Shown: positions 15,323 to 61,674 of the stretch, piece by piece
How the letters are laid out: each line of letters opens with the position of its first letter
Position numbering within the stretch: position 1 is the first letter of the stretch
From: Candidatus Xenobia bacterium
Lineage (GTDB): Bacteria; Vulcanimicrobiota; CADAWZ01
Direction: 5' to 3'
Length of the DNA: 64,000 nt
Assembly (NCBI GenBank): GCA_045114665.1
Contig: JBGUKW010000318.1
Location: forward strand, 1,868 to 65,867
Notes under the pieces: model-generated
Told to the model about the DNA's origin: nothing
Seen by the model: the letters and a program-made list of their open reading frames with translations, nothing else
The model's database searches: none
Position numbers and translations under genes: made by a program

Positions 15323-15442
15323 ATAGTGTTCAAAAAAAATCCAGCCGAGAAAATGTGAAGTGTACCCCAAATTTAGTACATAACTAAAAGTGAGGCAGTT
15401 CAAATGAACTCGACTGGATTTTTTATTTATTTCTCAATTTAC

Positions 15443-18061
15443 TTATACGACACCGTTAAATGCGTCTATATACATTTGTTTTATTTCACTCATAAGTGGA
15501 TAAGATGGGTTTGTTCCTGTGCATTGATCGTCAAAAGCAAGTTCTACCATTTCATCTAATTTTTCATAGAATGCCTGTTCTGTAACTCCCGCATCTTTTA
15601 TTGATTTTGGAAGTTTGAGAGCTTCTTTGAGTTTGTCAACTTCATTCAAGAAAATACTTATCTTTTCATCATCACTTAAATTTTTATCAACAATGTGAAG
15701 TTCATCAACAATCTGTCCAATTTTTTCTTTGACATTTGGATATTTATACTGTGGGAATGCACACTGCTTAAATGGCTTTTCAGTTGCGTTATACTTGATA
15801 ACCTGACTGAAGAGAAGAGCATTTGCTATTCCATGTGGGATATTGAACATAGAACCAAGTTTATGAGCCATTGAGTGACAGACACCAAGGAAAGCATTTG
15901 CAAATGCCATACCAGCCAATGTTGCTGCATAGTGCATTTTTTCTTTTGCTATTGGATCGCCTTTTCCATGTTCGTAAGATCTCGGCAAATACTTAAATAT
16001 CAATTTTATTGCTTCAAGTGCATTTGAATTTGTGAAGTTCGTTGCCATGGATGAAATATATGATTCAACAGCATGAACAAGTGAATCAAAACCACTTGCA
16101 GCACAAAGACCTGGAGGCATTGTATCGACAAAATCTGGATCGACAATTGCCATCGTTGGAGTGAGTGAATATTCAGCAATAGCATATTTTACATGGGTTT
16201 CATCATCTGTTATGATTGCAAAAGGAGTAACTTCTGAACCAGTTCCAGATGTTGTTGGAATAGCTATCAACTGTGATTTCTTTCCAAGCTCAGGAATTGA
16301 ACAAATTCTCTTTCTGATATCCATGAATCTCATAGATATATCTTCAAAATTAGTATCTGGATTTTCATACATCAACCAAACAATCTTCGCTGCGTCGATA
16401 GGAGAACCACCACCAAGAGCAATAATTACATCTGGTTCATAAGGTCTTACGACATTGAGAGCATCTCTAATTGTCGAAAGAGTTGGGTCTGGTCTGACAT
16501 CAAAGAAAATTTGGAAATCAACACCTATTTCATCGAGAACATTTGTTACTTTATATACTGTATTTGAATTAAATAAAAATCTATCAGTTATGATAAACGC
16601 ACGCTTTTTGCCTTTCAATTCTCTCAAAGCGAGATCGACAGAACCTCTCTTGAAATAAATCTTTGGCGGAACTTTGAACCAAAGCATATTTTCTCTCCTC
16701 TCAGCAACAGTCTTGTAATTTAAAAGATGTTTTACTCCAACATTTTCACTTACAGAATTTTCCCCCCATGATCCACAGCCAAGTGTGAGAGAAGGTTCAA
16801 GTCTGAAGTTATAGAGATCACCAAGACCACCATGGGAAGAAGGAGAGTTAATTATAATTCTGCCTGTATGAAGTTTATTGCCGAAAAATGATATTCTATC
16901 TTGTTTGCGAGGATCTGTATAAAGTACAGATGTATGACCAGCTCCTCCAAGCTCAACAAGATTATATGCCATATCTGTAGCATGTTCAAAATCTTCAGCC
17001 TTGTATAAAGCGAGTACAGGAGAAAGTTTTTCATGTGCAAATGGTTCTTCAAGTGCAATATCTGTAACTTCACCTATCAAAATCTTTGTATTTGGAGGAA
17101 CACTTATTCCAGCCATTTCAGCAATCTTACATGCAGGCTGACCTACAACAGCAGGATTTACACTGCCATTTTCTTTTATAACTGTTTTACCAACAACTTC
17201 TTTTTCTTCAGGTGAAAGAATATAAGCACCTCTATATCTAAATTCTTCTCTTACTTCTTCATAAACATCTTTAACAGCAATAACAGACTGTTCAGAAGCA
17301 CAAATCATGCCATTGTCAAATGTCTTTGAAAGAATAATTGAAGATACAGCCATTTTTATATCTGCAGTTTCATCAATTACAGCAGGAGTATTACCTGGAC
17401 CGACTCCTATTGCTGGCTTACCACTTGAATATGCAGATTTAACCATACCTGGACCACCTGTTGCCAAAATAGCGTCGATCATTGGGTGTCTCATAAGCAT
17501 TGCAGAAAGTTCAACAGAAGGCTCATCAATCCAACCGATTATATCTTTTGGAGCTCCTGCTTTTACAGCTGCATCTAAAACAAGTTTAGCAGCAGCTATT
17601 GTTGATTTTTTAGCTCTTGGATGTGGAGAGAAAATAATGGCATTTCTTGTTTTGAGAGCTATCAATGATTTAAAAATAGCTGTCGAAGTTGGATTTGTTG
17701 TTGGAACTATTCCTGCCAAAACTCCCAAAGGTTCAGCAATAATTTTTGTTCCATTGGTTATATCTTCTGAAATAACACCACAAGTTTTTGTATCTTTGTG
17801 TTTGTTATAGATATATTCTGAGGCAAAGTGATTTTTTATTACTTTGTCTTCAACAATTCCCATACCAGTATCTTCAACTGCCATTTTTGCAAGAGGAATA
17901 CGAGCTTTATTTGCAGCAACTGCAGCTGCTTTAAAAATCTTGTCAACTTTTTCCTGAGAAAATGTCGCATATATCTGCTGAGCTTTTTTAACACTTTTTA
18001 TAAGCTCTTCGAGATGTTCAGTAGTTGTAACTACATCAGAAGTTCTTAAAATTTCTTCCAT
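15443..18061 (-). CDS. adhE: Bifunctional acetaldehyde-CoA / alcohol dehydrogenase
   Basis: 872 aa. N-terminal ALDH domain and C-terminal Fe-ADH domain (GGGSPIDAAK, Fe-binding His). Confidence 0.95.
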   Translation of the reverse strand: MEEILRTSDVVTTTEHLEELIKSVKKAQQIYATFSQEKVDKIFKAAAVAANKARIPLAKMAVEDTGMGIVEDKVIKNHFASEYIYNKHKDTKTCGVISEDITNGTKIIAEPLGVLAGIVPTTNPTSTAIFKSLIALKTRNAIIFSPHPRAKKSTIAAAKLVLDAAVKAGAPKDIIGWIDEPSVELSAMLMRHPMIDAILATGGPGMVKSAYSSGKPAIGVGPGNTPAVIDETADIKMAVSSIILSKTFDNGMICASEQSVIAVKDVYEEVREEFRYRGAYILSPEEKEVVGKTVIKENGSVNPAVVGQPACKIAEMAGISVPPNTKILIGEVTDIALEEPFAHEKLSPVLALYKAEDFEHATDMAYNLVELGGAGHTSVLYTDPRKQDRISFFGNKLHTGRIIINSPSSHGGLGDLYNFRLEPSLTLGCGSWGENSVSENVGVKHLLNYKTVAERRENMLWFKVPPKIYFKRGSVDLALRELKGKKRAFIITDRFLFNSNTVYKVTNVLDEIGVDFQIFFDVRPDPTLSTIRDALNVVRPYEPDVIIALGGGSPIDAAKIVWLMYENPDTNFEDISMRFMDIRKRICSIPELGKKSQLIAIPTTSGTGSEVTPFAIITDDETHVKYAIAEYSLTPTMAIVDPDFVDTMPPGLCAASGFDSLVHAVESYISSMATNFTNSNALEAIKLIFKYLPRSYEHGKGDPIAKEKMHYAATLAGMAFANAFLGVCHSMAHKLGSMFNIPHGIANALLFSQVIKYNATEKPFKQCAFPQYKYPNVKEKIGQIVDELHIVDKNLSDDEKISIFLNEVDKLKEALKLPKSIKDAGVTEQAFYEKLDEMVELAFDDQCTGTNPSYPLMSEIKQMYIDAFNGVV

Positions 18062-18088
18062 TAAACTAAATCTCTCCTTTCATATCAT

Positions 18089-19546
18089 TTAATCTAACTT
18101 TAAATCTTCACTTTTATCCAAATATGCGTTTACTGCTTTTGAAGCAGTTTTTATAGAATTTAATGTTGCATTTCCACCAATACAGCCACTAGGACATGAC
18201 ATAACTTCAATTAAATTACCTTCTTCACAAGCTCCATTTTTGGCATATCTTTTGAGGTCTCTTATGCTCATCTTGTTTAATCCATCTACAACAAAAGGCT
18301 TTACCTTATCACTATTTTTGCCAAGTGCAACTCTTACAGATTCTGCAACACCACCAGTAAGAGGATATCCCCTACCCTGTTTTGAAGCAAACTGTTTAAA
18401 ATCTGTCTCTTCGCATTTTGCAACTTGGATATTAAAACCAATAAGCATTGCTCCAAGTTCTTCAAAAGTCAAAACATAATCTATTGTATCATATTCTGTT
18501 GCTTCCTGTCTTTTTGCTACACAAGGGCTTAAAAAAACTGTAACAGCATCTGGATATTTTTCCCTTACCAATTCAGCAGTATAATAAAGTGGAGTATGTG
18601 TATCTGAAACAAAAGGTTTTATCTCGGGCATGTGCTTTTTTACAAGCTCATTGTAAGCAGCACAACATGAAGTCGTCATAAATTTGTCGCCTCTTTCCAT
18701 TCTCTCCATAAAATCTTTTGCTTCATTTTTAGCTGTAACATCTGCACCAACAGCAACTTCCCAAACATCATAAAATCCCATTTTTCTAAGTGCAGTATTT
18801 AACTGCTGAGGAGAACAAGGCAACTGACCAGCAACTGAAGGAGCCATCATAGCAACTACTTTCATTCCACTTTTGATTCTTACCAAAACATCAATAAGTT
18901 GACTTTTTTCATGTACAGCTCCAAATGGACATGCAACAACACATTTTCCACAAGAAATACATTTATCAAAATCAATTTTGGCAAGCCCCGAAGGACCTTT
19001 TGCTATTGCACCAACAGGACATACATTTTCACAAGGAACAATTCTTTTGACAATTGCTTGATATGGACATACCTTCATGCACATGCCACACTGTTTACAT
19101 TTTGACTGGTCTATGACAGATTTTCCATTTATAAATTTAATAGCATTAAATCTGCATGTATTTACACAAGGTCTTGCAACACAACCTTGACACAACTCAG
19201 TAACAAAAACAGCATTTGGAAGACAACCTTGACATGCAGATTCCAAAACAGTCAAAACATCTTTATCAGGTCTTTTTCTATTTACGGCTCTTCTGACAAA
19301 TTCAGCAAGAGTATGTCTTTCATCATCATCCTCAAGAGTTGTTCCAAGCCCAGCCATAACTCTATTTCTCAAAGCAGCACGTTCTTTATATATACAACAA
19401 CGATAAGGCACTTCACAACCTTTAGGTCGCATATCAAAAGGAATAAGTCTTGCATTGTCTTCAAAAGAATCACTCAAAAAAGCCTTTACAATACGAACTA
19501 AAATTTCTTTTTTTAGTCTTACTGTATCATTTGACATATCAGACAT
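18089..19546 (-). CDS. [FeFe]-hydrogenase (HydA-type catalytic subunit with N-terminal ferredoxin-like Fe-S domain), non-canonical H-cluster motif variants
   Basis: 485 aa. Multiple CxxCxxCxxxCP clusters. H-cluster motifs L1 TSCCAAY, L2 SPCVAKRQE, L3 EVMSCPSGCIGG retain all ligand Cys and the Lys. Sits 27 bp upstream of adhE. Confidence 0.8.
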   Translation of the reverse strand: MSDMSNDTVRLKKEILVRIVKAFLSDSFEDNARLIPFDMRPKGCEVPYRCCIYKERAALRNRVMAGLGTTLEDDDERHTLAEFVRRAVNRKRPDKDVLTVLESACQGCLPNAVFVTELCQGCVARPCVNTCRFNAIKFINGKSVIDQSKCKQCGMCMKVCPYQAIVKRIVPCENVCPVGAIAKGPSGLAKIDFDKCISCGKCVVACPFGAVHEKSQLIDVLVRIKSGMKVVAMMAPSVAGQLPCSPQQLNTALRKMGFYDVWEVAVGADVTAKNEAKDFMERMERGDKFMTTSCCAAYNELVKKHMPEIKPFVSDTHTPLYYTAELVREKYPDAVTVFLSPCVAKRQEATEYDTIDYVLTFEELGAMLIGFNIQVAKCEETDFKQFASKQGRGYPLTGGVAESVRVALGKNSDKVKPFVVDGLNKMSIRDLKRYAKNGACEEGNLIEVMSCPSGCIGGNATLNSIKTASKAVNAYLDKSEDLKLD

Positions 19547-19605
19547 AATCTTATATCAAAAACGAAAAAATTTCGTCAAAACGCCTTTCTTTTATTATTT
19601 TTGTT

Positions 19606-19872
19606 CTATGAATTTCCAAGTTTTTTATCTATAGCTGCAAAAACCTTATCTATTGTAGCTTCTTTTATAACCTCATCATCTACCTTGACATAAGGAGCTT
19701 TTGAAAACTTCCAATCAATAGAACAAAGCCCAAGACATGGAACACCTGTAACTTCAACCTTATCACCATATCTTTTAGGAACAGAATCAATAAGTTCCTG
19801 AAGATTGGAAGCTCCCATGACAAAACATGTAGTCCCCAAACATACTTTTACATCTATTTTCTTTTCTTCCAT
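19606..19872 (-). CDS. Thioredoxin-like [2Fe-2S] ferredoxin (NuoE/HndA-like)
   Basis: 88 aa. Cx4C...Cx3C pattern (CLGTTC, CLGLC). Confidence 0.65.
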   Translation of the reverse strand: MEEKKIDVKVCLGTTCFVMGASNLQELIDSVPKRYGDKVEVTGVPCLGLCSIDWKFSKAPYVKVDDEVIKEATIDKVFAAIDKKLGNS

Positions 19873-19904
19873 AGCTGTATCATCCTTTTATAAAAATTAC
19901 AGTA

Positions 19905-21065
19905 TTACATATACTGTATATTAACCTTTTTAAAATATTTTTTTTCGAGAACTTCTGCAATTTTCTTTACTATATTTTTTCTTATAGCAATTTCAACAGG
20001 TAAAGTAGGATCATAATGAGCTTCATTTAATTTAGCTCCTACCATAAAATATATTTCATCACTATCAAGGAAAAAATTTGATAACCTAACTGCAGCATTA
20101 TTTGAATCAGGTATTTTATTTTCAAGATATTCCAATGTTCGAGTAAGGGTCAAAACGCCCTCTGTAACTAAATCTGCTCCTTCCATTTCGAGACAAGAAG
20201 GTAGAGAATCTATACTTATCAATCTGCCAACTGTAATTTTTGCATTTAATTCTCTTGATAACAAATTCGCTGTTGTTCCTCCACAAACAGCTTTTTTGCC
20301 AACAAAATTCTTAAACATATAAGCAAATTCTCTATCACTTGATTGTCTATAAGGAGGACCAGTAAAAACAAGAGATTTTCTTGGTTCTCTAAAATATAAA
20401 ACACAAGCTGATATATCATCAATAGGCTTTCTATTTGGTTCAACTAATTTTGCCTGCTGTACAATATATTTAGCAAGATTATGGCTTGAAATTTCAGGAT
20501 CATTTGCAAGTTTAATTTTCAAAAAATCAATTAATCCACTTCTTCTAAGACCTAATTTTAAAACACCACCGCCAAGTCCCGCTTGAGTAACTCCGTCTGA
20601 GCAAAAAACGAATCTATCACCTAACTGTGCATTCATTTTATAGACTTTCATATGTCTATTTTTAAAATTTACAGAGTCAATTATAGTAAATTCTGGTTTT
20701 AAAACCTCTGTACCTCTAATCCAAACAAAATCTGGATTTCCTTCTTCAACAACAGAAATTTTGCCATCATCAAAACAGTCAATAGCAGAAAAAGTAGAAT
20801 AACTTATATGTCTCACTTGACAGACAGGAAGAGAATTCATAACAATTTCAGCTGCCTTTTTTATTTTGATATTTTTTTCTATAAATCTCAAAAGCATTGT
20901 TGCTGTCATACAAGACAATATATTTGCTTTTATTCCACTTCCCAAACCATCAGACAAAACTGCTATTAATCTTTTATCTTGCGGATAACGCTTAGATACA
21001 AAATAATCCCCAAAGGCATTTTGTTTATATTTTTTTTCTTGTACACAATCTATATCTATAAACAC
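19905..21065 (-). CDS. PP2C-type (SpoIIE/RsbU-like) serine phosphatase
   Basis: 386 aa. PPM motifs VLSDGLGSG and FVFCSDGV. Confidence 0.7.
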   Translation of the reverse strand: MFIDIDCVQEKKYKQNAFGDYFVSKRYPQDKRLIAVLSDGLGSGIKANILSCMTATMLLRFIEKNIKIKKAAEIVMNSLPVCQVRHISYSTFSAIDCFDDGKISVVEEGNPDFVWIRGTEVLKPEFTIIDSVNFKNRHMKVYKMNAQLGDRFVFCSDGVTQAGLGGGVLKLGLRRSGLIDFLKIKLANDPEISSHNLAKYIVQQAKLVEPNRKPIDDISACVLYFREPRKSLVFTGPPYRQSSDREFAYMFKNFVGKKAVCGGTTANLLSRELNAKITVGRLISIDSLPSCLEMEGADLVTEGVLTLTRTLEYLENKIPDSNNAAVRLSNFFLDSDEIYFMVGAKLNEAHYDPTLPVEIAIRKNIVKKIAEVLEKKYFKKVNIQYM

Positions 21066-21074
21066 TATGCCCTC

Positions 21075-22766
21075 CTATTTATCATAATCATCTGCAATAG
21101 AACTTAATAGAGTCTCTGTTTCAACCATATGTTCACCAAGTAAGCAAGCTATTTCTTGAACAATAGAAATATTTTTTGAAATAACTTCATTTGCTCTTCG
21201 TGCTATTTTTTCTCTATTCATCTGTGTTTTAGTTACATCTGTTATTATAGCACCAGCAACTTTACCAGGTTCAAGTACAAAAGCTATAATATCATATATT
21301 TTATCATCTAAACAATAATGCTCTTTGTGAATTTCATGACCAAGTTTAAAAACTTCCTTAAATATCTCAACAATATCTACAATACGGTCTAAAGAAGCTC
21401 CTGCAATTCCATCTGCTTCAAAAATATCAGCCATATCACCTGTAAAAGCTCTAATAAAAGATGTATTTGCTTCCAATATTCTCAAAAAAGAATCAACAAT
21501 AACAACAGATGAAGGCATACATCTTATCATTATCGAAGCCTTTTGCATTGCCAATTTTCTCATATATGATACACACATAGAAGGCTCTGCAATACCTGCA
21601 ATAAGTGCTAACGCAAGTTCCCTACAAGTGTTATATCCACATCCACCACAATTTAATTCATCTTCTGGATTAGACTTTCCTAATTTCTTCAAAGCCTCAT
21701 TTATTTCTTCTAATGAATACTCTTTTAAATCTTCTTTTTTAGGTGCATAATCCATATGGACTACACTTAAAGGCTCTTTTGGAATAGAATCTCTCAACTT
21801 TGTACGAGTCAAAATATCTGAAATAAGCATTATCTCTGATTTTTCTGTGCTTATACAAGGACCACCTATGCAACCACCTTCACATGCAAGAACTTCTGCA
21901 AATGTAACTTTAGTGCAATCATTTGGCTTAAATCCATCAAGTGCCTTTTTAAAAGACTTTAAAGAGGCAAATTCTGTCAATATACAATTTTTAACACCTA
22001 TCTGTTTTAATGTACGATTCATTCCACCATCAATAGGATAGAAATTTCCCTCATTTGCATTATGTGGCAAAAATTTTATCTCTTCTAAATTTATTTCTTT
22101 ATGTATATTAATAAAAGATTTCTCAAACATTAATTTTAATTCTTCAAAAGTTAAGGAAACATCTATTAAATTTTTATTGGTATCTGATTCATTTTTCTTT
22201 CCTATGCATGGACCAATGAAAATAACAGAAATATCTTCGCCATACATTTCTTTTAACATTTTAGCATGTGTCAATGCAGGAGAAGCTATTGGAACTATAT
22301 TTTTAACAAATTCAGGGCGGTATTTTCTTATATATTCTACAACTACTGGACAAGCACTCGATATAAAAAATCCATTTTCAGCTTTGTTCAATATTTCAGC
22401 TGTTTTAATAGATACTTCTTGAGCTCCTAAAGCCGTTTCACTAACTCCAGTAAAACCAAGTTTTTTAAGAGATGAAATAATTTCAGTTTCTGTACAATCA
22501 AAAGCTCCTCTCCAACTTGGTGCCAATGAAGCATAAACTTTTTTACTGGATTCCAAAAGTTCTGTCGCTATTCCGACATCTGATCTTACTCTTTTGGCAT
22601 TACAAGGACATACAATAACACAATTACCACAAGAAATACATTTATCTTGCATAACAAAAGCATGACCTTTTTCAACTTTTATGGCTTTTACTGGACATTC
22701 TCTAATACATTTATAACAATCTTGACACTCATTTGTCAATGTATATACAGGTTGAGAAATAGGCAT
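21075..22766 (-). CDS. Sensory-type [FeFe]-hydrogenase (HydS/HfsB-like): 2x[4Fe-4S] ferredoxin domain, modified H-cluster domain, C-terminal Cys-rich plus PAS domain
   Basis: 563 aa. CxxCxxCxxxCP x2. L1 ISSACPVV, where the proton-transfer Cys position is Ala. L2 GPCIGKK. L3 EVLACEGGCIGGP. CGGCGYNTC followed by a PAS-like C-terminus. Confidence 0.75.
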   Translation of the reverse strand: MPISQPVYTLTNECQDCYKCIRECPVKAIKVEKGHAFVMQDKCISCGNCVIVCPCNAKRVRSDVGIATELLESSKKVYASLAPSWRGAFDCTETEIISSLKKLGFTGVSETALGAQEVSIKTAEILNKAENGFFISSACPVVVEYIRKYRPEFVKNIVPIASPALTHAKMLKEMYGEDISVIFIGPCIGKKNESDTNKNLIDVSLTFEELKLMFEKSFINIHKEINLEEIKFLPHNANEGNFYPIDGGMNRTLKQIGVKNCILTEFASLKSFKKALDGFKPNDCTKVTFAEVLACEGGCIGGPCISTEKSEIMLISDILTRTKLRDSIPKEPLSVVHMDYAPKKEDLKEYSLEEINEALKKLGKSNPEDELNCGGCGYNTCRELALALIAGIAEPSMCVSYMRKLAMQKASIMIRCMPSSVVIVDSFLRILEANTSFIRAFTGDMADIFEADGIAGASLDRIVDIVEIFKEVFKLGHEIHKEHYCLDDKIYDIIAFVLEPGKVAGAIITDVTKTQMNREKIARRANEVISKNISIVQEIACLLGEHMVETETLLSSIADDYDK

Positions 22767-22781
22767 TTATTAGAACCTCTT

Positions 22782-23030
22782 TTAATTATTTTTTAAATGT
22801 TCAGATATTAATTGTTTTATTTTTTCAAAATCAATATTATCATGTTTTTTTTCATTTATAAAAACATGGGGACCATCAGAACATTGATTTGAACAACGAA
22901 CTCCAGCAAGTTCTATTTTATCTTGCAAACCATTTTCTTCTATATATTTTTCAATAAGTTCAAGATTATCATTATTTCCTCTTGCAAAACAAGAACTCCC
23001 CATACATATTGTCAAATTTATTTTATCCAT
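22782..23030 (-). CDS. Thioredoxin-like [2Fe-2S] ferredoxin
   Basis: 82 aa. Cx4C (CMGSSC) and Cx3C (CSNQC). Confidence 0.6.
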   Translation of the reverse strand: MDKINLTICMGSSCFARGNNDNLELIEKYIEENGLQDKIELAGVRCSNQCSDGPHVFINEKKHDNIDFEKIKQLISEHLKNN

Positions 23031-23095
23031 AATAAAATCTTTCTTTTACTTAAAATTTTTTATATAAAATGTGATTTTTTTCTCAATTTCTTTAC

Positions 23096-23123
23096 ATTAT
23101 AACATATAAATTTATAAAGTCAA
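23096..23123 (-). promoter_or_regulatory. Candidate sigma70-type promoter for the ferredoxin-hydS-PP2C-hydA-adhE operon
   Basis: On the minus strand, TTGACT - 16 nt - TATAAT, about 60 nt upstream of the first ferredoxin start. Confidence 0.4.
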
Positions 23124-23140
23124 TATTTTTCAAAAAAAAT

Positions 23141-39710: not shown

Positions 39711-39894
39711 AAAAATATACCTCCGTATTTTTCTTTTCTATAACTTTATCACTATTTTTTTTCAAAAAGTGGTTTTCTTACAAAACTATTTTTTCATTAT
39801 ACTATTTTGATTTAAATAATGCAAGTTTTATTTTATTTTTTTATAATATAATTTTTAAAATTAATGATTATATCTTATATAAATATAAAAAACA

Positions 39895-41614: not shown

Positions 41615-41885
41615 TGTTTTTAATCCTTTCTACTCAATAAGGTTTAATTCTTTTTTGAATTGATTAGCATGTTTGAACAAAATTATTGTGATTTTTGAAT
41701 ATGCAATCTATTACAGTTGAAATATTATAGCATGTGTTTTTTGTAAATGCAAGATCAAAAATAAATAAAGGAAGAATAATTCTTTAGAAAAATATTTATT
41801 TTTAGAAATATTTGATATAATTATAAGAAAAATACGACTATATTCAAAATATAATGTATTTTTTTTAGGAAGGAGTAATAATATT

Positions 41886-54969: not shown

Positions 54970-55866
54970 ATGAATATAACAAGTTATGATCCTTTAAAGG
55001 ATAGAGATTACGAAAAATCTTCATCATCTTCTTCAGCAAAAGGTGGTGCTATTACTGATGGCGATGTCGCTACATTTGCAAATATGTTAGAACGCAAGAC
55101 AAATGGCGACAATGATGTAAAAGAAAAGACAAAAGAGGCTATTTATTCAGATAAAGAAGCTAAAAAAGAGAGTGAAAAGAATGCAAAAACAGCTTCTAAT
55201 TTGCCAAATACTGCAAAGATGTCTGCCTCTAAACAGCTTTTATATAACATGCCTTATATGAACAAAGCAACACTTTCACTTGCTCAGAAAAGTGCAATGG
55301 GATTAAATGCTGATGGTACTTCAAAGGCTATGGTTATGTATGGAAATAATCAGAACATGACTGCAGGCAAGACTGGTGAAGCTGTCAATCTTCAAGCTCA
55401 GACAAAGGCTGCAGAAGCAAATGGAATTGCAAAAACTGATGAAGCAAAAGCTGGCAAAGAATCAAAAGCAAAATCTCCAGCACTTGGTGTCAATGCAAAT
55501 ATTTCTGCTCAAAATACAGAACAGACAGAAAAGCCAATTACTAAAGAAGTAAGCAAAGCCGAAAAGACAGAAGCTGAACGCAATGTCAAGAGAGAAGAAG
55601 TCATCAAACAGATCATCAACCATGTTGAATTGAAGAATTTTGCAGGTAAGTCAGAACTCACAATTAAGATGAATCCTGAATTCCTCGGTGCAATGAAGAT
55701 GAGACTTATATTTGAAGGCGATAAGGTCTCCGCAGAATTTAATACAACTTCAAAAGCTGTTCGTGAAGCAATCGCTGATTCTTCAGATGAACTTTCACAG
55801 GCATTTAATAAAAAGGGTATTAAAGTTGGTCATATCGGTGTAAAACTCGTAGATAAAGTTTCATAG
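54970..55866 (+). CDS. fliK: Flagellar hook-length control protein FliK-like
   Basis: C-terminal Flg_hook-like domain (ELTIKMNPEFLGAMKMRLIFEGDKVSAEF). Low-complexity N-terminus. Confidence 0.65.
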   Translation: MNITSYDPLKDRDYEKSSSSSSAKGGAITDGDVATFANMLERKTNGDNDVKEKTKEAIYSDKEAKKESEKNAKTASNLPNTAKMSASKQLLYNMPYMNKATLSLAQKSAMGLNADGTSKAMVMYGNNQNMTAGKTGEAVNLQAQTKAAEANGIAKTDEAKAGKESKAKSPALGVNANISAQNTEQTEKPITKEVSKAEKTEAERNVKREEVIKQIINHVELKNFAGKSELTIKMNPEFLGAMKMRLIFEGDKVSAEFNTTSKAVREAIADSSDELSQAFNKKGIKVGHIGVKLVDKVS

Positions 55867-55901
55867 AAAAATTTGAAATAAAAAGTAGAACTATATTGTG
55901 A

Positions 55902-55935
55902 AAGCGGTAAGGAAATTTTCTTTACCGCTTTTTTA
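55902..55935 (+). terminator. Rho-independent terminator ending the flagellar operon
   Basis: AAGCGGTAA-GGAAATTTTCT-TTACCGCTTTTTT. Confidence 0.75.
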
Positions 55936-56055
55936 ATAGAATTTTTGAAAACATAGTGTACAGAAAATGAATATGGCTGGTTAGTGAAGTAATGGATTAT
56001 GTGGCAAGAGAGACGCAGAGTAGAAAATTTGTAGATTGTTTGAAGGAATTGAAAA

Positions 56056-56364
56056 TTGACATACTCCCCATAAATTTAGGGGATTCTGGCATATTAACGA
56101 ACCTTGCCTCTATTTTAAATTAGAGGTCTTACGAGTTCTATCTACAATGGTTGATGCCCCAACCATATTCTTTATTTATTATTATGTTCCTTGTTTTAAT
56201 TTAAGTTTAGAGAACAGACGATTACCTTCTCTATCTATGTTTATTCCTGCGTTTATATCACGATCATGATGAACACCACAAACAGGACAAGTCCATTCTC
56301 GTATCCGTATATGCCTGTATACTGTCATTTTATCATTGCGAGGCTTTAGCCGTGGCAATCTCAA
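56056..56364 (-). mobile_element. IS200/IS605-family right-end remnant, copy 2: 60-codon TnpB C-terminal fragment (ORF 56182..56364: ...[22 protein letters not shown]...) plus RE hairpins
   Basis: About 90% identical to 36427..36678 and extends a further ~65 bp into tnpB. Hairpins CCCCATAAATTTAGGGG and CCTCTATTTTAAATTAGAGG. Same minus-strand orientation as copy 1. Confidence 0.65.
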
Positions 56365-56448
56365 GCACTTTTTTATTAACTAACACAACGAGTTAATTAT
56401 GAAAATATTTTATATTATTAAACCCCCAAAAAATACAAAAAAAAATCA

Positions 56449-56477
56449 TTGCATAAAATCTTTAAAAGTAGTATAAT
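56449..56477 (+). promoter_or_regulatory. Consensus sigma70-type promoter of the oadGAB operon (TTGCAT-17-TATAAT), member of a duplicated ~52-nt promoter module
   Basis: -35 TTGCAT at 56449..56454, 17-nt spacer, -10 TATAAT at 56472..56477, upstream A-tract. Module matches 59903..59956 with only 3 mismatches. Confidence 0.6.
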
Positions 56478-56528
56478 TATAAAATACAGCAAAAAATACC
56501 CCAACAATAAAGGGAAAGAGGACAAAAT

Positions 56529-56756
56529 ATGGTAGAAGGTCTTTATGTTACTGGGATAGGCATGGGGGTTGTATTTGCTTTTCTATGTATTCTTGTACTT
56601 GCTATAACATTGACAGATATGCTTGTAGCTAAATATGAAAAAGCAAATCCACCAGCAGAAATTGCAAACAAACCAAAAGCTAAAAAGTCTATACCAGAAG
56701 AAGAAGTTATAGCCGTTGCCATTGCTTCGGCAATTAAACATGGAGAGTTAGTATAA
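56529..56756 (+). CDS. oadG: Oxaloacetate decarboxylase gamma subunit
   Basis: 75 aa. Single N-terminal TM helix. Sits immediately upstream of oadA. Confidence 0.7.
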   Translation: MVEGLYVTGIGMGVVFAFLCILVLAITLTDMLVAKYEKANPPAEIANKPKAKKSIPEEEVIAVAIASAIKHGELV

Positions 56757-56758
56757 AT

Positions 56759-58570
56759 ATGGGTAAGAAAAAAATTAAAGTAATGGATACGTCTTTCAGA
56801 GACGGATTTCAGTCAGTCTATGGAGCGAGAGTTTTCACTAAAGATTTTCTTCCCGCTCTTAAAAGTGCAATAGAAGCAGGATTAAGACATTTTGAAGTAG
56901 GTGGTGGAGCAAGATTTCAAGCCCCTATATTCTACTGTAATGAAAATGCTTTTGACATGATGGACACAATAAGAAAAACAGCAGGTCCAGAAATTGAGCT
57001 TCAGACACTCGCAAGAGGTGTAAATGTCGTAGGTCTTGAATCACAGCCTAAAGACATCATCGATCTTCATGCTAAAATGTTCAAAAAACATGGCATGACA
57101 ACGATTAGAAATTTTGATGCATTAAATGATGTCAATAATTTAGATTATTCAGGAAGATGTATTAAAAAACATGGATTAAAACATGAAGTAACTGTAACAA
57201 TGATGGAATTACCTATTGGTTGTGAAGGAGCTCATGATGTTCCATTTTATGAAAAAGTTTTAAGAAGTATACTTGATGCTGGAATTCCATTTGATTCTCT
57301 ATGTTTTAAAGATGCATCTGGTACATCAAGACCAAGAAAAGTTTTTGAGACAGTAAAAATGGCAAGAGAATTAATCGGTTCTGACAAAAGCATAAGATTC
57401 CATTCTCATGAAACAGCTGGAACAGGCTTAGCATGTTATTTATCTGCTCTCGAAGGTGGAGCTGACGCAATAGATTTATCAATGAAACCTGTTTCAGGTG
57501 GAACAGCACAGCCTGACATCGTATCAATGTGGCATGCTCTCAAAGGTACAGAATACGATCTCGGAATCGACATCAAAAAAATCATAGAAACTGAAGAAAT
57601 TTTTAAAGAGTGTATGAAGGACTATTTCCTGCCTCCTGAGGCTACAACAGTAAATCCTATGATCATTCAATCCCCTCTCCCAGGTGGTGCCTTAACAGCA
57701 AATACCCAAATGATGAGAGACAACGGAACTATGAACAGATTCCCAGAAGTTGTAACAGCAATGAATGAAGTTGTATCAAAAGGCGGTTTTGGAACTTCTG
57801 TAACACCTGTTTCACAATTCTATTTCCAACAGGCATATTCAAATGTGATGTTTGGACCTTGGAAAAAGATAACAGACGGATATGGCAAAATGGTTCTTGG
57901 ATATTTTGGAAAGACACCTTGTGAGCCTGATCCTGAAGTAGTAAGAATGGCTTCAGAACAGTTAAAACTTGAACCAACAAAAGAAAAAGTTGTTAACATC
58001 AATGACAGAGACAAAACAAAAGGCATTGAATATGCAAAAAAAGTTTTAAAAGAAGCTGGTCTTGAAGAGACAGATGAAAACATATTTATAGCTGCCTCTT
58101 GTAAAGAAAAAGGTATCGAATTCCTAAAAGGAAATGGAAAAATTGGTGTCAGAAAGAACGAACCTGAAAAGAAAACTACATCATTGACAAAAACCAAAAA
58201 ATCAGATACATATACAGTAACTGTAAATGGCAAGAGTTATGTAGTTAAACTCGATTCACAATGTACAAAGGCAACTGTAAATAATTCTACTTATGACATA
58301 GATGTAAAAGAAGGTTCTACATCTCTTGTCAAAAAATCTTCTTCATCAAATGAAGGCACAGAGATAAAAGCTCCACTACCAGGAAAAATTACAAAAGTTC
58401 TTGTAAAAATTGGAGATAAGATAGAAAAAGAAGATACAGTAGCTATCATTGAAGCAATGAAAATGGAAACAGAGATAAAAAGTCCAGTCGCTGGTACTAT
58501 TTCTTCTATAGATGTTGAATTTGGAACAGATGTACTTACAGATCAAGCAATTATGACTGTAGAAGAATAG
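56759..58570 (+). CDS. oadA: Oxaloacetate decarboxylase alpha subunit (carboxyltransferase plus biotin carboxyl-carrier domain)
   Basis: 603 aa. TIM-barrel carboxyltransferase (FRDGFQS, HxH metal site). C-terminal biotinyl domain EAMKMETEI. Confidence 0.9.
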
Positions 58571-58578
58571 GAGGGATC

Positions 58579-59766
58579 ATGGATTTCGGAAGTAAATTAC
58601 AAGCATTAAATGCAAGCACTGGATATTGGAACTTAATAAAACCACCAAATCCAGCACTAAGTGGAATTGAGCAATTTTTATATCAATTTGGAACTCCGAT
58701 AATGTTTATTGTCTGCTTCCTTTTGATATATCTTGCAATAAAAAAACAATATGAGCCTCTTTTACTTCTTCCTATTGGCTTTGGAGGATTTTTAGCAAAT
58801 ATTCCAGTCATAAATATGGCCGAGGGCAATGGATTTCTTCACCAAATATATAATTTCGGTATAGAATCAGGATTATTTCCACTGTTTATATTCATGGGAG
58901 TAGGAGCATTGACGGACTTTGGTCCACTAATTGCAAACCCTAAAATGGCACTTTTAGGGGGTGCAGCACAATTTGGAATTTTTGGTGCATTGTTGGGAGC
59001 CCTTGTACTTGGTGAATACTGCGGATTTGGTTTTGGACTAAAAGAAGCAGCTTCTATCGGAATCATAGGAGGTGCTGACGGCCCAACTTCAATATTTGTA
59101 ACCACAAAATTAGCTCCTGATTTACTTGGTGCTATTGCGGTTGCTGCTTATTCATATATGGCACTTGTTCCAATAATTCAGCCACCAATAATGAAATTAT
59201 TGACAAGCGAAGAAGAACGAAAAATAAAAATGACTCAGCTAAAACCTGTATCAAAAACGACTAAAATATTATTCCCTATTGTAGTTCTTGGACTTTGTGC
59301 ATTATTTCTTCCAGACGCAACCCCACTAATGGGAGCATTATGTTTTGGAAATTTAGCTAAAGAATCAGGAGTTGTTGATAGAATTTCAAAAACAATGCAG
59401 AATGAATTTATGAATATTGTTACAATTCTTCTCGGATTGGCAGTTGGTTCAAAATTATCTGCAGATAAATTTTTGACAGTTCAGACACTTGGAATTCTTC
59501 TTTTAGGACTTATAGCATTTTCAATAGCAACAGCTTCAGGTGTTTTATTTGCTAAACTTATGAACCTTTTTTCAAAAAAGAAAATCAATCCACTTATCGG
59601 TGCAGCTGGTGTTTCTGCAGTTCCAATGTCAGCAAGAGTTGTAAACAAAGTAGGACTTGAAAGTGATTCACAAAATTTCTTGCTTATGCATGCAATGGGA
59701 CCTAATGTATCTGGTGTCATAGGTTCTGCTGTAGCAGCAGGAATATTAATTGCACTTTGTAGATAA
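58579..59766 (+). CDS. oadB: Oxaloacetate decarboxylase beta subunit (Na+-translocating)
   Basis: 395 aa polytopic membrane protein of the OadB/GcdB/MmdB family. Confidence 0.9.
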
Positions 59767-59788
59767 AATAATTAACCTAAACATAAAA

Positions 59789-59827
59789 AACCTTTCCTCT
59801 CCTTATATAAGGAGAGGGAAGGTTTTT
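59789..59827 (+). terminator. Rho-independent terminator after oadB
   Basis: AACCTTTCCTCTCCTTA-TAT-TAAGGAGAGGGAAGGTTTTT. Confidence 0.8.
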
Positions 59828-59914
59828 GTATATTTTTTCTCATATGAACTGAACCCAAAATTACATTTTTTGTTTGCCTTTGCATAAAAATACATAAAAA
59901 ATATAAAAAAATCA

Positions 59915-59943
59915 TTGCATAAAATTTTTAAAAGTAGTATAAT
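59915..59943 (+). promoter_or_regulatory. Consensus sigma70-type promoter of pckA; second copy of the duplicated promoter module
   Basis: TTGCAT at 59915..59920, 17-nt spacer, TATAAT at 59938..59943. Confidence 0.6.
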
Positions 59944-60027
59944 AATAAAATATAGCGAACATAGTGAAAAATTAAGGGCTATTTTGATAGTCCTATTTTT
60001 ATAAAATACAAGGTGAAAGGAATAAAC

Positions 60028-61674
60028 ATGAGTACAATAGAGAATTTCAGAACAAATGAAGAATTCAAAGCTATGACTTCTGCAGCAAGAGCAACTATAG
60101 TAACTCCATTTTTTGGAAACAATGTAGAATCTGTAAAGACAATAGCAGAAGCATACAAACTTGCACTTCGTAGCCCTGGTACAATAGAATTGACAGGAAT
60201 GCCAGTCTATGAACCTGAAAAAATTGGACTTCCAAAAGGTGCAAATCAACTTCTTTTCAACGATGGCAATGTTGTCGGTCGTTGTGCAGCAGCAAGAAGA
60301 ATCGTAGGAGACACAAACTGTGATCTCAAAAAAATTCTCCCAGTAGTTAGAGAAGCTGTATATAATACAAGATATAAATTAATGTACAGAACAGAAGCCG
60401 TTATTGGTCTTGAAAATGATTTCATGATCAAAGCACACCTTTTGATTCCACAAGGCTTTGAAAATATAATGTACTCTTGGCTCTTGAACTTCCAATATAT
60501 AAATGAAGAATATGCAAAAATGTATGCAAATTCAAGAGAAATCCCAGAGGGTGACATCTATGTATTCTCAGACCCAGATTGGACACACCCAGACTTCCCA
60601 CTCGGTTTGACATTCTTCGATCCAGAACACAACTGTGCAGCAATCCTCGGAATGAGATATTTCGGAGAATTCAAAAAAGGAACTCTCACACTTGCTTGGG
60701 GTTCTGCAGCAAGAAATGGATATGCTTCATGCCATGGTGGAATGAAGCGTTACAACCTCGAAGGTGGAAAATCATTCCAAGCAGCAGTATTTGGTCTTTC
60801 AGGTTCAGGAAAATCAACAATTACACACGCAAAACACAACAACAAATATGACATCACTGTTCTTCATGATGACGCATTTATCATCAATGTTGAAAAGAAA
60901 TATTCAATAGCTCTTGAACCTTCATATTTTGATAAAACAGCTGACTATCCAATGGGTTGCGATGATAACAAATATATCCTCACACAACAGAACAATGGCG
61001 CAATCACAGCTGAAGACGGAAAAGTCTATTCAATAACAGAAGACATCAGAAATGGAAATGGAAGAGCTGTAAAATCAAAACTATGGTCTCCAAACAGAGT
61101 TGATAGAGTTGATGAACCAATCAACGCTATATTCTGGCTTATGAAAGACCCAACAATTCCTCCAGTTGTAAAAGTATCAGGTGCAGCACTCGGAAGCACA
61201 ATGGGAGCAACACTTGCAACAAAGAGAACATCTGCAGAAAGACTTGCACCAGGTGTAGATCCAAATGCACTCGTAGTTGAACCTTATGCAAACCCATTCA
61301 GAGTTTATCCTCTAAAAGTTGACTATGAACGCTTCAAAAAATTGATTGAAGACGGAGTTGCTTGCTACATTCTCAACACAGGCGAATTTATGGGCAAGAA
61401 AATCAAAAAAGAGACAACACTTGGAGTTCTCGAATCAATCGTCGAAGGTACTGCAAAATTTGAAAAATGGGGCAATCTTTCTGACATCGAAATCATGAAA
61501 ATCGAAGGATTTGATGCTTCATTTGACAATGCAGAATATGCAGAACAATTCTCAAAACGCATGAGCGATAGAATCGAATTTGTAAAATCAAGAAAGACAG
61601 AAAAAGGCGGAAAGGACGAACTTCCAGAAGAAGCTCTCCAAGCTCTTGAAAATGTCATCAAAGAAATCAAATAA
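60028..61674 (+). CDS. pckA: Phosphoenolpyruvate carboxykinase (ATP)-like
   Basis: Kinase-1a P-loop FGLSGSGKSTIT (canonical FGLSGTGKTTLS) and overall collinearity with ATP-PEPCK. ATG at 60028 with an AGGTGAAAGG SD. Confidence 0.7.
   Translation: MSTIENFRTNEEFKAMTSAARATIVTPFFGNNVESVKTIAEAYKLALRSPGTIELTGMPVYEPEKIGLPKGANQLLFNDGNVVGRCAAARRIVGDTNCDLKKILPVVREAVYNTRYKLMYRTEAVIGLENDFMIKAHLLIPQGFENIMYSWLLNFQYINEEYAKMYANSREIPEGDIYVFSDPDWTHPDFPLGLTFFDPEHNCAAILGMRYFGEFKKGTLTLAWGSAARNGYASCHGGMKRYNLEGGKSFQAAVFGLSGSGKSTITHAKHNNKYDITVLHDDAFIINVEKKYSIALEPSYFDKTADYPMGCDDNKYILTQQNNGAITAEDGKVYSITEDIRNGNGRAVKSKLWSPNRVDRVDEPINAIFWLMKDPTIPPVVKVSGAALGSTMGATLATKRTSAERLAPGVDPNALVVEPYANPFRVYPLKVDYERFKKLIEDGVACYILNTGEFMGKKIKKETTLGVLESIVEGTAKFEKWGNLSDIEIMKIEGFDASFDNAEYAEQFSKRMSDRIEFVKSRKTEKGGKDELPEEALQALENVIKEIK

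What the first reader, a model, noticed from the sequence alone, without database searches (positions are those of the whole stretch)
56437..56490. Duplicated 52-nt consensus promoter module drives both oadGAB and pckA (copy 2 at 59903..59956)
The sequence AAAAAAATCATTGCATAAAAT(C/T)TTTAAAAGTAGTATAAT(T/A)ATAAAATA occurs twice with 3 mismatches. One copy is ~50 nt upstream of oadG, the other ~85 nt upstream of pckA. Each contains TTGCAT-17 nt-TATAAT, a near-perfect sigma70 promoter, plus an upstream A-tract and a palindromic TTTTAAAA core in the spacer. Identity extends beyond what promoter function alone requires, through the -10 and into the +1 region. That implies a shared operator for a common regulator of the oxaloacetate node (Na+-pumping OAD and PEP carboxykinase).
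Basis: seen in the sequence. Interest (0 to 1): 0.5.

Follow-up and report, generated by a model that had tools for sequence, protein, structure and literature searches.

The report
Duplicated promoter left by operon split
A roughly 65-base promoter in front of the oxaloacetate decarboxylase genes was copied in front of the neighbouring PEP carboxykinase gene, apparently when a former single operon was split; this is a tidy natural example of promoter re-use, not evidence for a new regulator.

Summary
The repeat is real. Window 56439-56490 and 59905-59956 differ at 3 of 52 positions, against 0 matches expected by chance. Homology runs for about 65 nt, from roughly -45 to +20.

Each copy has an A-tract, TTGCAT, a 17-nt spacer and TATAAT. 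The same TTGCAT-N17-TATAAT form also precedes rpsF and rpmA here (4 sites against 0.06 expected). It therefore looks like this organism's strong housekeeping promoter. The organism is a rumen bacterium, probably Melainabacteria.

- **Occurrence:** In 20+ contigs of the same species-level clade the module always precedes oadG and pckA. DNA upstream of about -50 differs between strains. No third copy was found.
- **Relatives:** In two lineages with 81-83% identical PEPCK, oadG-oadA-oadB-pckA is one tight operon with a 31-47 nt gap, and the module is absent.
- **Best reading:** This is an operon fission. A terminator and a second copy of the operon's promoter now separate oadB from pckA.
- **Shared operator:** This is not needed to explain the identity. 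Both copies share no dyad, and there are no extra sites. However, the spacer is more conserved than neutral proxies (P about 0.01), so an operator is not excluded.

Transcription starts are unmapped. This is a new member of a known kind, the putative mobile promoter doublet.

The parts
56427..56493 (+). Promoter module, copy 1 (oadG). A-tract 56437-56445; -35 TTGCAT 56449-56454; 17-nt spacer 56455-56471; -10 TATAAT 56472-56477; predicted start near 56484.
   Evidence: The start site is inferred from the usual 7-nt distance after the -10 and has not been mapped.
59893..59977 (+). Promoter module, copy 2 (pckA). A-tract 59905-59911; -35 TTGCAT 59915-59920; spacer 59921-59937; -10 TATAAT 59938-59943; predicted start near 59950. 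Includes a window-specific 9-nt tandem duplication within 59952-59969, after which the homology continues (GAAAAATTA).
56529..56756 (+). oadG, gamma subunit of a Na+-pumping decarboxylase (75 aa).
   Evidence: TIGR01195 scores 47 bits, above its cutoff of 36.
56759..58570 (+). oadA-like alpha subunit: carboxyltransferase plus biotin carrier domain (603 aa).
   Evidence: Pfam PYC_OADA, Biotin_lipoyl and HMGL-like. NCBIfam oadA and pyruvate carboxylase subunit B hits are below their cutoffs.
58579..59766 (+). oadB, Na+-translocating decarboxylase beta subunit (395 aa).
   Evidence: TIGR01109 scores 556 bits, above its cutoff of 190.
59786..59827 (+). Intrinsic terminator after oadB: a 19-bp stem followed by a T-run.
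   Evidence: Free energy is -29 kcal/mol, z = -6.5, with 0 of 200 shuffles as stable. L024 and L029 have a terminator of different sequence at the same place.
60028..61674 (+). pckA-like gene: a divergent ATP-type PEP carboxykinase family protein (548 aa).
   Evidence: Pfam PEPCK_ATP scores 52 bits, above its cutoff of 26.5. NCBIfam hits are below cutoff. The best PDB match is 1ygg at E = 3e-4. GLSGSGKST and GEFKKG motifs are present.
59975..60003 (+). Short hairpin plus T-run in the pckA leader only. It is not part of the shared module.
   Evidence: about -9 kcal/mol, z = -0.8 to -1.2, not significant. It is present in all strains in two sequence variants.
56041..56364 (-). Truncated IS605-family right end (TnpB C-terminal zinc-finger fragment plus downstream non-coding end) directly upstream of copy 1. 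It marks the rearranged upstream flank.
   Evidence: Pfam Cas12f1-like_TNB. It is 96% identical to a repeat at 36446-36675. Aligned with the full tnpB of L031.

Best explanation
**What it is.** The two sequences are paralogous copies of one compact housekeeping-type promoter. Each has a proximal A-tract, a TTGCAT -35, a 17-nt spacer, a TATAAT -10 and the first ~20 transcribed bases.

**How it arose.** In the ancestor, oadG-oadA-oadB-pckA was a single operon read from one promoter. In this species-level lineage of a rumen bacterium (probably Melainabacteria) the operon was split. An intrinsic terminator now follows oadB, and a ~65-nt copy of the promoter now in front of oadG was placed in front of pckA. 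The two enzymes of the PEP -> oxaloacetate -> pyruvate route therefore keep the same transcriptional input although they are no longer co-transcribed.

**Consequences.** Because pckA is now self-sufficient, the oadB-pckA gap tolerates insertions. In different strains it holds an IS4-type transposase, an IS605 tnpB, or a 7.7-kb AdhE/hydrogenase segment.

**Shown:** the repeat, its extent, its invariance across strains and its absence from relatives; the operon state in relatives; the terminator.

**Inferred:** promoter activity and start sites; the direction of change (fission rather than fusion); the copying mechanism (probably illegitimate recombination; unknown).
For: 1. **The repeat is far beyond chance**.
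2. **It is a recurrent promoter form.** TTGCAT-N17-TATAAT occurs 4 times in the window against 0.06 expected, and all four sites are correctly oriented upstream of genes: rpsF, rpmA, oadG, pckA.
3. **It is always present where expected.** In about 30 loci of the clade the module precedes every pckA and every oadG. No third copy exists at up to 6 mismatches in 29. Only two copies per genome were found in the two related MAGs, RUG13580 and RUG13696, and one further oadG copy in metagenomes.
4. **Homology between strains stops at the module's 5' edge.** The breakpoints are at window 56427 and 59892. Four different upstream contexts are seen for pckA and at least four for oadG. The about -50 to +20 block must therefore contain what is needed for expression.
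5. **Relatives have one operon.** Those with 81-83% identical PEPCK have oadGAB-pckA with a 31-47 nt oadB-pckA gap, no terminator and no module. Their oadG promoter is unrelated in sequence. L008, L009 and L033 share the fliH/fliI neighbourhood with the window.
6. **Strong terminators follow oadB in both sub-lineages**, with different sequences.
7. **The core is held by selection, not homogenisation.** The -35 and -10 hexamers are invariant, and 2 of 17 spacer positions vary across 12 alleles. The flanks vary at 8 of 14 and 17 of 25 positions, and 4-fold sites at 23-31%. Within-genome paralogue distances (7-14 of 63) are not systematically smaller than between-genome ones (9-15), so concerted evolution is not the explanation.
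8. **It meets the published criteria for a putative mobile promoter doublet** (PMC3488235).
Against: - No transcript data exist, so start sites and terminator efficiency are predictions.
- The -35 matches TTGACA at only 3 of 6 positions.
- The polarity (fission) rests on two operon-bearing lineages and shared synteny, without a rooted phylogeny. Two other lineages (P0073, P0020) have pckA alone.
- The source of the module is unknown. It may have come to both sites from a third locus not sampled. The MAG search needed an exact match to 28 specified bases, and MAGs are incomplete.
- The copying mechanism is not visible: there are no flanking direct or inverted repeats.
- Spacer conservation above the neutral expectation could mean something more than a plain promoter.
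Confidence: 0.7

Rival explanations
1. First reader's view. The block is conserved because it contains an operator for a dedicated transcription factor, overlapping the spacer and +1 region, that co-regulates the oxaloacetate node.
For: - The 17-nt spacer is more conserved than 4-fold sites (combined P about 0.01) and than the downstream and upstream flanks (P = 0.018 and 0.0004).
- The two transcription units are functionally linked.
Against: - Duplication by descent already explains the identity, because relatives lack the module and use one operon.
- No dyad or direct-repeat symmetry is shared by both copies. TTTTAAAA occurs only in copy 2 and TATAATTATA only in copy 1.
- There is no excess of spacer-like sites elsewhere in the window, and no third copy in related genomes or loci.
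- No regulator gene lies nearby.
- Spacer sequence also affects promoter strength. The rpsF promoter shares the TAG-TATAAT junction.
- The statistical tests treat sites and alleles as independent, so their P values are approximate.
Confidence: 0.17
2. Reverse polarity. The split arrangement with two promoters is ancestral, the tight oadGAB-pckA operons of relatives arose later by deletion, and the two promoters stay alike through gene conversion or selection.
For: - Operons are known to form by deletion of intervening DNA (PMC1480536).
- Two related lineages have pckA on its own.
- The oadG copy of the window and RUG13580 carries the pckA-type 'TCA' before the -35, hinting at some exchange between copies.
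Against: - The module is absent from every relative examined, including those with a solitary pckA.
- Two distinct operon-bearing lineages in different neighbourhoods would each need an independent deletion.
- There is no general signal of concerted evolution.
- About 89% identity over 66 nt of non-coding DNA is hard to keep across the divergence implied by 81-83% protein identity.
Confidence: 0.08
3. The module is the end or outward-facing promoter of a mobile element (IS or MITE), or a dispersed intergenic repeat, and sits next to these genes by chance.
For: - IS605-family remnants or full tnpB genes, and an IS4-type transposase, lie directly upstream of one or other copy in several strains.
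- Mobile elements are one proposed route of promoter propagation (PMC3488235).
Against: - The element next to the module differs from strain to strain, and some strains have none. The module stays with the gene, not with the element.
- The IS605 right end stops at ...TATGTCAAT, about 70 nt before the -35 in L031. In the window it faces away from oadG.
- Only two copies per genome were found, none in viral contigs, and there are no terminal inverted repeats.
Confidence: 0.04
4. The conserved block is a transcribed RNA element (leader, riboswitch or sRNA) driven from further upstream, not a promoter.
For: - Similarity extends about 20 nt past the -10.
- The pckA leader has a hairpin with a T-run.
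Against: - No Rfam match was found, even at E <= 5.
- The block is AT-rich with no stable fold. The oadG leader folds at -3.2 kcal/mol, z = 0.1.
- Sequence upstream of about -50 is not conserved between strains, so no common upstream promoter exists.
Confidence: 0.02

Closest known systems
Putative mobile promoters (PMPs), doublet class (Matus-Garcia, Nijveen & van Passel 2012, PMC3488235)
   Same: Two highly similar upstream regions of at least 50 nt and 80% identity sit in front of non-homologous genes in one genome. This is a species-restricted pair, which that paper attributes to recombination-mediated duplication. Here the -150..-51 fragments give 50 nt at 92%.
   Different: - The two genes are neighbours and were formerly co-transcribed, so the copy preserves an existing regulatory link and does not rewire a silent or foreign gene.
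- Population-level data show the copy fixed across a whole clade, with variable flanks.
Operon death by insertion or rearrangement (Price, Arkin & Alm 2006, PMC1480536)
   Same: A conserved operon of functionally related genes is split while both genes stay near each other. Insertions occupy the former junction.
   Different: - That study describes insertion, rearrangement and replacement, and reports that split pairs become less co-expressed. A text search of the paper for 'duplicat' and 'new promoter' found nothing.
- Here the downstream gene received a copy of the operon's own promoter, which should conserve co-expression.
Strong sigma70-type promoters with a proximal UP-element A-tract, such as E. 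coli rrnB P1 (own knowledge; Estrem et al. 1999)
   Same: A-tract at about -45 to -39, a TTG-containing -35, a 17-nt spacer and a consensus -10. The same architecture is used by ribosomal protein genes in this window.
   Different: - The -35 is TTGCAT, not TTGACA.
- The organism is not a proteobacterium, and its sigma factor and alpha-CTD preferences are unknown.
- No activity data exist.
Na+-translocating oxaloacetate decarboxylase oadGAB of Klebsiella, Vibrio and Salmonella (reviewed in PMC8100219)
   Same: Three-subunit gene set in gamma-alpha-beta order. The beta and gamma subunits pass the family cutoffs.
   Different: - It is not linked to citrate or tartrate fermentation genes. It is linked to a PEPCK-family gene instead: in one operon in relatives, and behind the same promoter here.
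- The alpha subunit scores below the equivalog cutoffs.

Membership tests
Putative mobile promoter (PMP) doublet, PMC3488235 | The 100-nt fragments taken from -150 to -51 relative to the start codon align over at least 50 nt at 80% identity or more (E <= 1e-4). | tested here: met
   BLASTN of window 56379-56478 against 59878-59977 gives 50 nt, 92% identity, E = 8e-18. This is exactly at the length threshold. The full repeat is 59/66.
Putative mobile promoter (PMP) doublet, PMC3488235 | The downstream coding sequences are not homologous. | tested here: met
   BLASTP of OadG against the PEPCK-like protein finds no hit at E <= 10. They belong to different families.
Putative mobile promoter (PMP) doublet, PMC3488235 | The upstream coding sequences are not homologous, that is, this is not a whole-segment duplication. 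| tested here: met
   Upstream of copy 1 lie fliK and an IS605 remnant; upstream of copy 2 lies oadB. Repeat detection finds no other similarity between the two flanks.
Sigma70-type (housekeeping) promoter | -10 hexamer TATAAT and a 16-18 nt spacer. | tested here: met
   TATAAT at 56472-56477 and 59938-59943, with a 17-nt spacer.
Sigma70-type (housekeeping) promoter | -35 hexamer close to TTGACA (at least 4 of 6). | tested here: not met
   TTGCAT matches 3 of 6, so the scanner did not report it. However, TTGCAT-N17-TATAAT is itself over-represented (4 against 0.06 expected) and precedes rpsF and rpmA. This suggests a lineage-specific -35 preference.
Sigma70-type (housekeeping) promoter | Transcription starts about 7 nt after the -10. 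| not testable with these tools
   No transcriptome data are available. The predicted starts are near 56484 and 59950.
Transcription-factor operator shared by a regulon | Internal dyad or direct-repeat symmetry present in all copies. | tested here: not met
   The palindromes found are copy-specific: TATAATTA in copy 1 only, and an imperfect 13-nt palindrome in copy 2 only. TTTTAAAA is broken in copy 1 and in L024 and L029.
Transcription-factor operator shared by a regulon | Further occurrences upstream of other genes. | tested here: not met
   The spacer 17-mer with up to 3 mismatches gives 10 hits against 6.0 +/- 2.3 expected. The 29-mer with up to 6 mismatches occurs nowhere else in the window or about 30 loci. 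Two copies per MAG. Limited by incomplete genomes.
Transcription-factor operator shared by a regulon | Conservation of non-hexamer positions beyond the neutral expectation. | tested here: inconclusive
   One of 17 spacer positions varies in each paralogue set, against 23-31% of 4-fold sites (combined P about 0.01). This is equally expected from selection on promoter strength.
Intrinsic (Rho-independent) terminator | A G+C-rich hairpin directly followed by a T-run, downstream of a stop codon. | tested here: met
   59786-59827 has 19 pairs followed by a T-rich tail, at -29 kcal/mol and z = -6.5. L024 and L029 have a counterpart at -22 to -25 kcal/mol.
Na+-translocating oxaloacetate decarboxylase (oadGAB) | Gamma, alpha (carboxyltransferase plus biotin carrier) and beta subunits encoded together. 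| tested here: met
   TIGR01195 and TIGR01109 score above cutoff. The alpha subunit has PYC_OADA and Biotin_lipoyl domains but scores below the oadA equivalog cutoff. Substrate specificity was not tested.
ATP-dependent PEP carboxykinase (PF01293) | Match to the family profile above the curated threshold, with nucleotide-binding motifs. | tested here: inconclusive
   Pfam scores 52 bits, above 26.5. All NCBIfam PEPCK models score far below cutoff (116 against 369). The best PDB match is 1ygg at E = 3e-4. GLSGSGKST and GEFKKG are present (motif identity from own knowledge). It is a family member, but its activity is unproven.

The most novel reading that the evidence does not exclude
The near-invariant 17-nt spacer (AAAAT[C/T]TT[T/C]AAAAGTAG) is not only a strength determinant. 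It would be the binding site of an unidentified regulator that sets flux through a PEPCK -> Na+-pumping OAD bypass of pyruvate kinase in gut and rumen Melainabacteria. On this reading the promoter was duplicated because that control had to be kept when the operon broke.
Probability: 0.15. Interest if true: 0.45.

Novelty: new member of a known kind. Interest (0 to 1): 0.3.

Why it matters
**Co-regulation after an operon break.** The case shows how co-regulation can survive the break-up of an operon: the downstream gene receives a copy of the operon's own promoter. The classic survey of operon death does not mention this route (no text match for 'duplicat' or 'new promoter'), although promoter re-use as such is well documented.

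**Minimal promoter defined by natural variation.** More than 20 natural contigs give a 'promoter-bashing' series. Everything upstream of about -50 can be replaced without loss of the module. This defines a minimal promoter for an uncultured lineage, which could be useful as a genetic part.

**Metabolic hint.** The operon link between a Na+-pumping decarboxylase and a PEPCK-family enzyme points to a PEP -> oxaloacetate -> pyruvate route that conserves extra energy as a sodium gradient. That speaks to the open question of what Na+-pumping OADs do outside citrate fermentation (PMC8100219).

None of this is a surprise to specialists, and it does not reveal a new mechanism.

Tried and rejected
- **Known RNA families.** Rfam on the whole window at gathering thresholds, and on 55860-60060 at E <= 5, found only a tRNA elsewhere and noise on the terminator.
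- **Regulon search.**
  - The exact 28-base core in GTDB genomes found only two MAGs, each with two copies.
  - A relaxed 24-base core in JGI metagenomes found one more oadG copy.
  - Two patterns in viral contigs found nothing.
  - Mismatch-tolerant scans of the window and all fetched loci found nothing new.
- **Operator symmetry.** No dyad is shared by both copies.
- **Concerted evolution.** Within-genome paralogue distances are not lower than between-genome ones, apart from a possible small exchange at the 5' edge in the window lineage. Rejected as the main cause of identity.
- **Module carried by the neighbouring IS605 remnant.** The IS right end is defined by four aligned copies and does not include the module. 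Its orientation and presence vary.
- **Homology of the module with the rpsF promoter.** The match is 34 of 48, only slightly above the AT-rich background maximum of 31. Treated as a shared promoter architecture, not shared descent.
- **pckA leader hairpin as an attenuator.** The fold is no better than shuffles and there is no compensatory change. Left as an observation.
- **Similarity of the two ribosome-binding regions in RUG13696-type strains.** Judged too short and too AT/purine-rich to count as extended homology.
- **Alternative sigma factors.** Read by eye against recalled sigma28 and sigma54 consensus motifs (own knowledge; no tool run), the module resembles neither.

Full report
**1. 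The observation**

With its two degenerate positions it matches 56439-56486 and 59905-59952 on the + strand exactly. No match was obtained in 100 dinucleotide-preserving shuffles. Reading the DNA directly, 56439-56490 and 59905-59956 differ at three of 52 positions.

Repeat detection extends the pair to 67 nt at 88%. A gapped alignment gives 59/66 identities, E = 5e-22.

Each copy contains, in order:
- a run of A (56437-45; 59905-11);
- TTGCAT (56449-54; 59915-20);
- a 17-nt spacer;
- TATAAT (56472-77; 59938-43).

TTGCAT matches TTGACA at only three of six positions, so the consensus scanner did not list the site. 'Near-perfect' is therefore too generous. The TTTTAAAA palindrome is present in copy 2 only.

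**2. The genes**

| Coordinates | Gene | Evidence |
|---|---|---|
| 56529-56756 | oadG | |
| 56759-58570 | carboxyltransferase + biotin-carrier alpha subunit | |
| 58579-59766 | Na+-translocating beta subunit | |
| 59786-59827 | 19-bp hairpin with T-run (-29 kcal/mol, z = -6.5) | |
| 60028-61674 | PEPCK_ATP family protein | |

- The PEPCK-like protein is very divergent. Pfam scores 52 bits, NCBIfam models fall far below their cutoffs, and the best PDB hit is 1ygg at E = 3e-4.
- It does carry GLSGSGKST and GEFKKG.
- Upstream of oadG lie flagellar genes (fliI, fliJ, a lytic transglycosylase, fliK) and a truncated IS605-family end.
- The nearest named homologues of the PEPCK (81% identity) are from 'Candidatus Melainabacteria' MAGs.
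- The only related GTDB genomes found are two uncultured rumen MAGs.

**3. Is it a promoter?**

There are no transcript data, so this is inference. Four lines of evidence agree.

- (a) TTGCAT-N17-TATAAT occurs four times in 64 kb against 0.06 expected. The other two sites are correctly placed upstream of ribosomal protein genes rpsF and rpmA. This looks like the organism's strong housekeeping promoter form, with a lineage-specific -35.
- (b) The terminator after oadB makes an independent start for pckA necessary.
- (c) The module was present in front of every pckA and every oadG in about 30 loci of the same species-level clade (pckA 95-99% nt identity).
- (d) Homology between strains ends at the module's 5' edge, at window 56427 and 59892.

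The DNA further upstream of pckA takes four forms:
- oadB plus terminator;
- a 531-aa ORF plus an IS4-type transposase;
- a 7.7-kb AdhE/[FeFe]-hydrogenase segment, which in the window lies at 15413-23125;
- an IS605 tnpB.

The oadG upstream region is equally variable. Whatever drives these genes must therefore lie within about -50 to +20.

**4. Why are the two copies alike?**

Two lineages with 81-83% identical PEPCK have oadG-oadA-oadB-pckA contiguous. These are the P0002 type (L005-L007) and the P0055/P0044 type (L008, L009, L033).
- Only 31-47 nt separate oadB and pckA.
- There is no terminator and no module.
- Their oadG promoters are unrelated in sequence to the module.
- The P0055/P0044 type also has fliH-fliI a few kb upstream, as in the window.

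Two other lineages have pckA alone, again with an unrelated promoter.

The simplest history is an operon fission in the window's lineage. A terminator and a second copy of the promoter now found at oadG were placed between oadB and pckA. Once pckA was autonomous, the junction could accept insertions, as the strain variants show. The paralogous identity is thus common descent, and no operator is needed to explain it.

**5. What maintains it?**

An alignment of 12 distinct alleles (six per gene) shows the following.

| Region | Variable positions |
|---|---|
| -35 and -10 hexamers | invariant |
| Spacer | 2 of 17 |
| Next 14 positions downstream | 8 of 14 |
| 25 positions upstream | 17 of 25 |
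| 4-fold degenerate sites, same strains | 23% (pckA), 31% (oadAB) |

- The 29-nt core is significantly less variable than 4-fold sites (P = 0.006 and 0.0003).
- The spacer alone is marginally so (0.077 and 0.017, combined about 0.01).
- Within-genome paralogue distances (7-14 of 63) are not generally smaller than between-genome ones (9-15). Gene conversion is therefore not the main cause, and purifying selection is.

Against it:
- no symmetry is shared by both copies;
- spacer-like sites show no excess;
- no third copy was found, and none in viral contigs.

Spacer composition and the TAG-TATAAT junction, which the rpsF promoter shares, can be selected for strength alone.

**6. Comparison with what is known**

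- **Putative mobile promoters.** The pair satisfies the operational definition of Matus-Garcia et al. (PMC3488235): 50 nt at 92% within the -150..-51 fragments, with non-homologous flanking genes. It belongs to their 'doublet, single species' class, which they attribute to recombination-mediated duplication.
- **Operon death.** It is also an instance of operon death with both genes remaining neighbours (Price et al., PMC1480536). That study lists insertion, rearrangement and replacement, and reports reduced co-expression after a split. A text search of the paper for 'duplicat' and 'new promoter' found nothing. The combination seen here is a modest twist, not a new kind of element: the copy conserves a link and does not rewire one.
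- **Metabolism.** Di Rienzi et al. (PMC3787301) already proposed that gut Melainabacteria use OAD to build a sodium gradient. [quoted passage not shown] An oadGAB-pckA operon suggests PEP -> oxaloacetate (with ATP formed) -> pyruvate (with Na+ pumped). This is my inference and is untested.

**7. Verdict**

- Promoter function for both units is well supported by comparative evidence but unmapped.
- The shared-operator inference is not supported, though not excluded (about 0.15-0.2).
- The best explanation is promoter duplication accompanying fission of an ancestral oadGAB-pckA operon. My confidence is about 0.7. The main uncertainty is the polarity of the change and the source and mechanism of the copy.
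- Interest is low to moderate.

Noticed in passing
window 36427-36675 and 56041-56364 (genes on the - strand); L003 900-1250; L031 1612-2900: There are two 96%-identical truncated right ends of an IS605-family element. Each has a TnpB C-terminal zinc-finger fragment plus about 190 nt of non-coding end that finishes ...GGGGAGTATGTCAAT, possibly the omega-RNA region. A full-length tnpB with the same end sits about 70 nt upstream of the pckA promoter in other strains.
   Followed up: partly
window 15413-23125: A 7.7-kb segment (AdhE, two [FeFe]-hydrogenase-like genes, a SpoIIE-type phosphatase, small thioredoxin-like ferredoxins) lies here in the window. In RUG13580 and ten other contigs it lies between oadB and the pckA promoter. 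This is a strain-level translocation with intergenic breakpoints.
   Followed up: partly
window 59975-60003 (pckA leader): A short hairpin followed by a T-run is present in all strains in two sequence variants. It is terminator-like but no more stable than shuffles. Its 3' half plus the T-run resembles the module's -10 to +10 region (22/28), so it may be a remnant of a second partial copy or a leader attenuator.
   Followed up: partly
window 59952-59969: A 9-nt tandem duplication (ATAGCGAAC / ATAGTGAAA) just after the predicted pckA start. It is found only in the window's strain and lengthens the leader by 9 nt.
   Followed up: yes
L005-L009 and L033 (relatives); window 56529-61674: In related Melainabacteria-like genomes oadG-oadA-oadB-pckA form one tight operon. 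In one lineage it is preceded by a biotin-protein ligase gene and a Na+/H+ exchanger. This suggests a PEP -> oxaloacetate -> pyruvate route coupled to Na+ export.
   Followed up: partly
window 60028-61674: The PEPCK-family protein is very far from characterised enzymes (Pfam 52 bits; best solved structure at E = 3e-4). Even so, it is highly conserved (>80% identity) across thousands of metagenomic sequences. It is a distinct, uncharacterised PEPCK subfamily.
   Followed up: partly
window 39796-39824 (-) and 41724-41752 (-): TTGCAT-N17-TATAAT promoters lie upstream of rpsF-ssb and rpmA. Together with the two module copies they suggest TTGCAT as the preferred -35 of this organism.
   Followed up: yes
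window 29011-29727, inside the - strand ORF 28434-29825: 9-nt periodic DNA repeats encode a Gly/Met-rich repetitive stretch in a 463-aa protein with weak EF-hand and FlxA-like matches.
   Followed up: no
L024 5800-5850 and L029 3560-3605 versus window 59786-59827: The terminator after oadB differs in sequence between sub-lineages but stays a strong hairpin plus T-run. The stem has turned over while function is apparently retained.
   Followed up: partly
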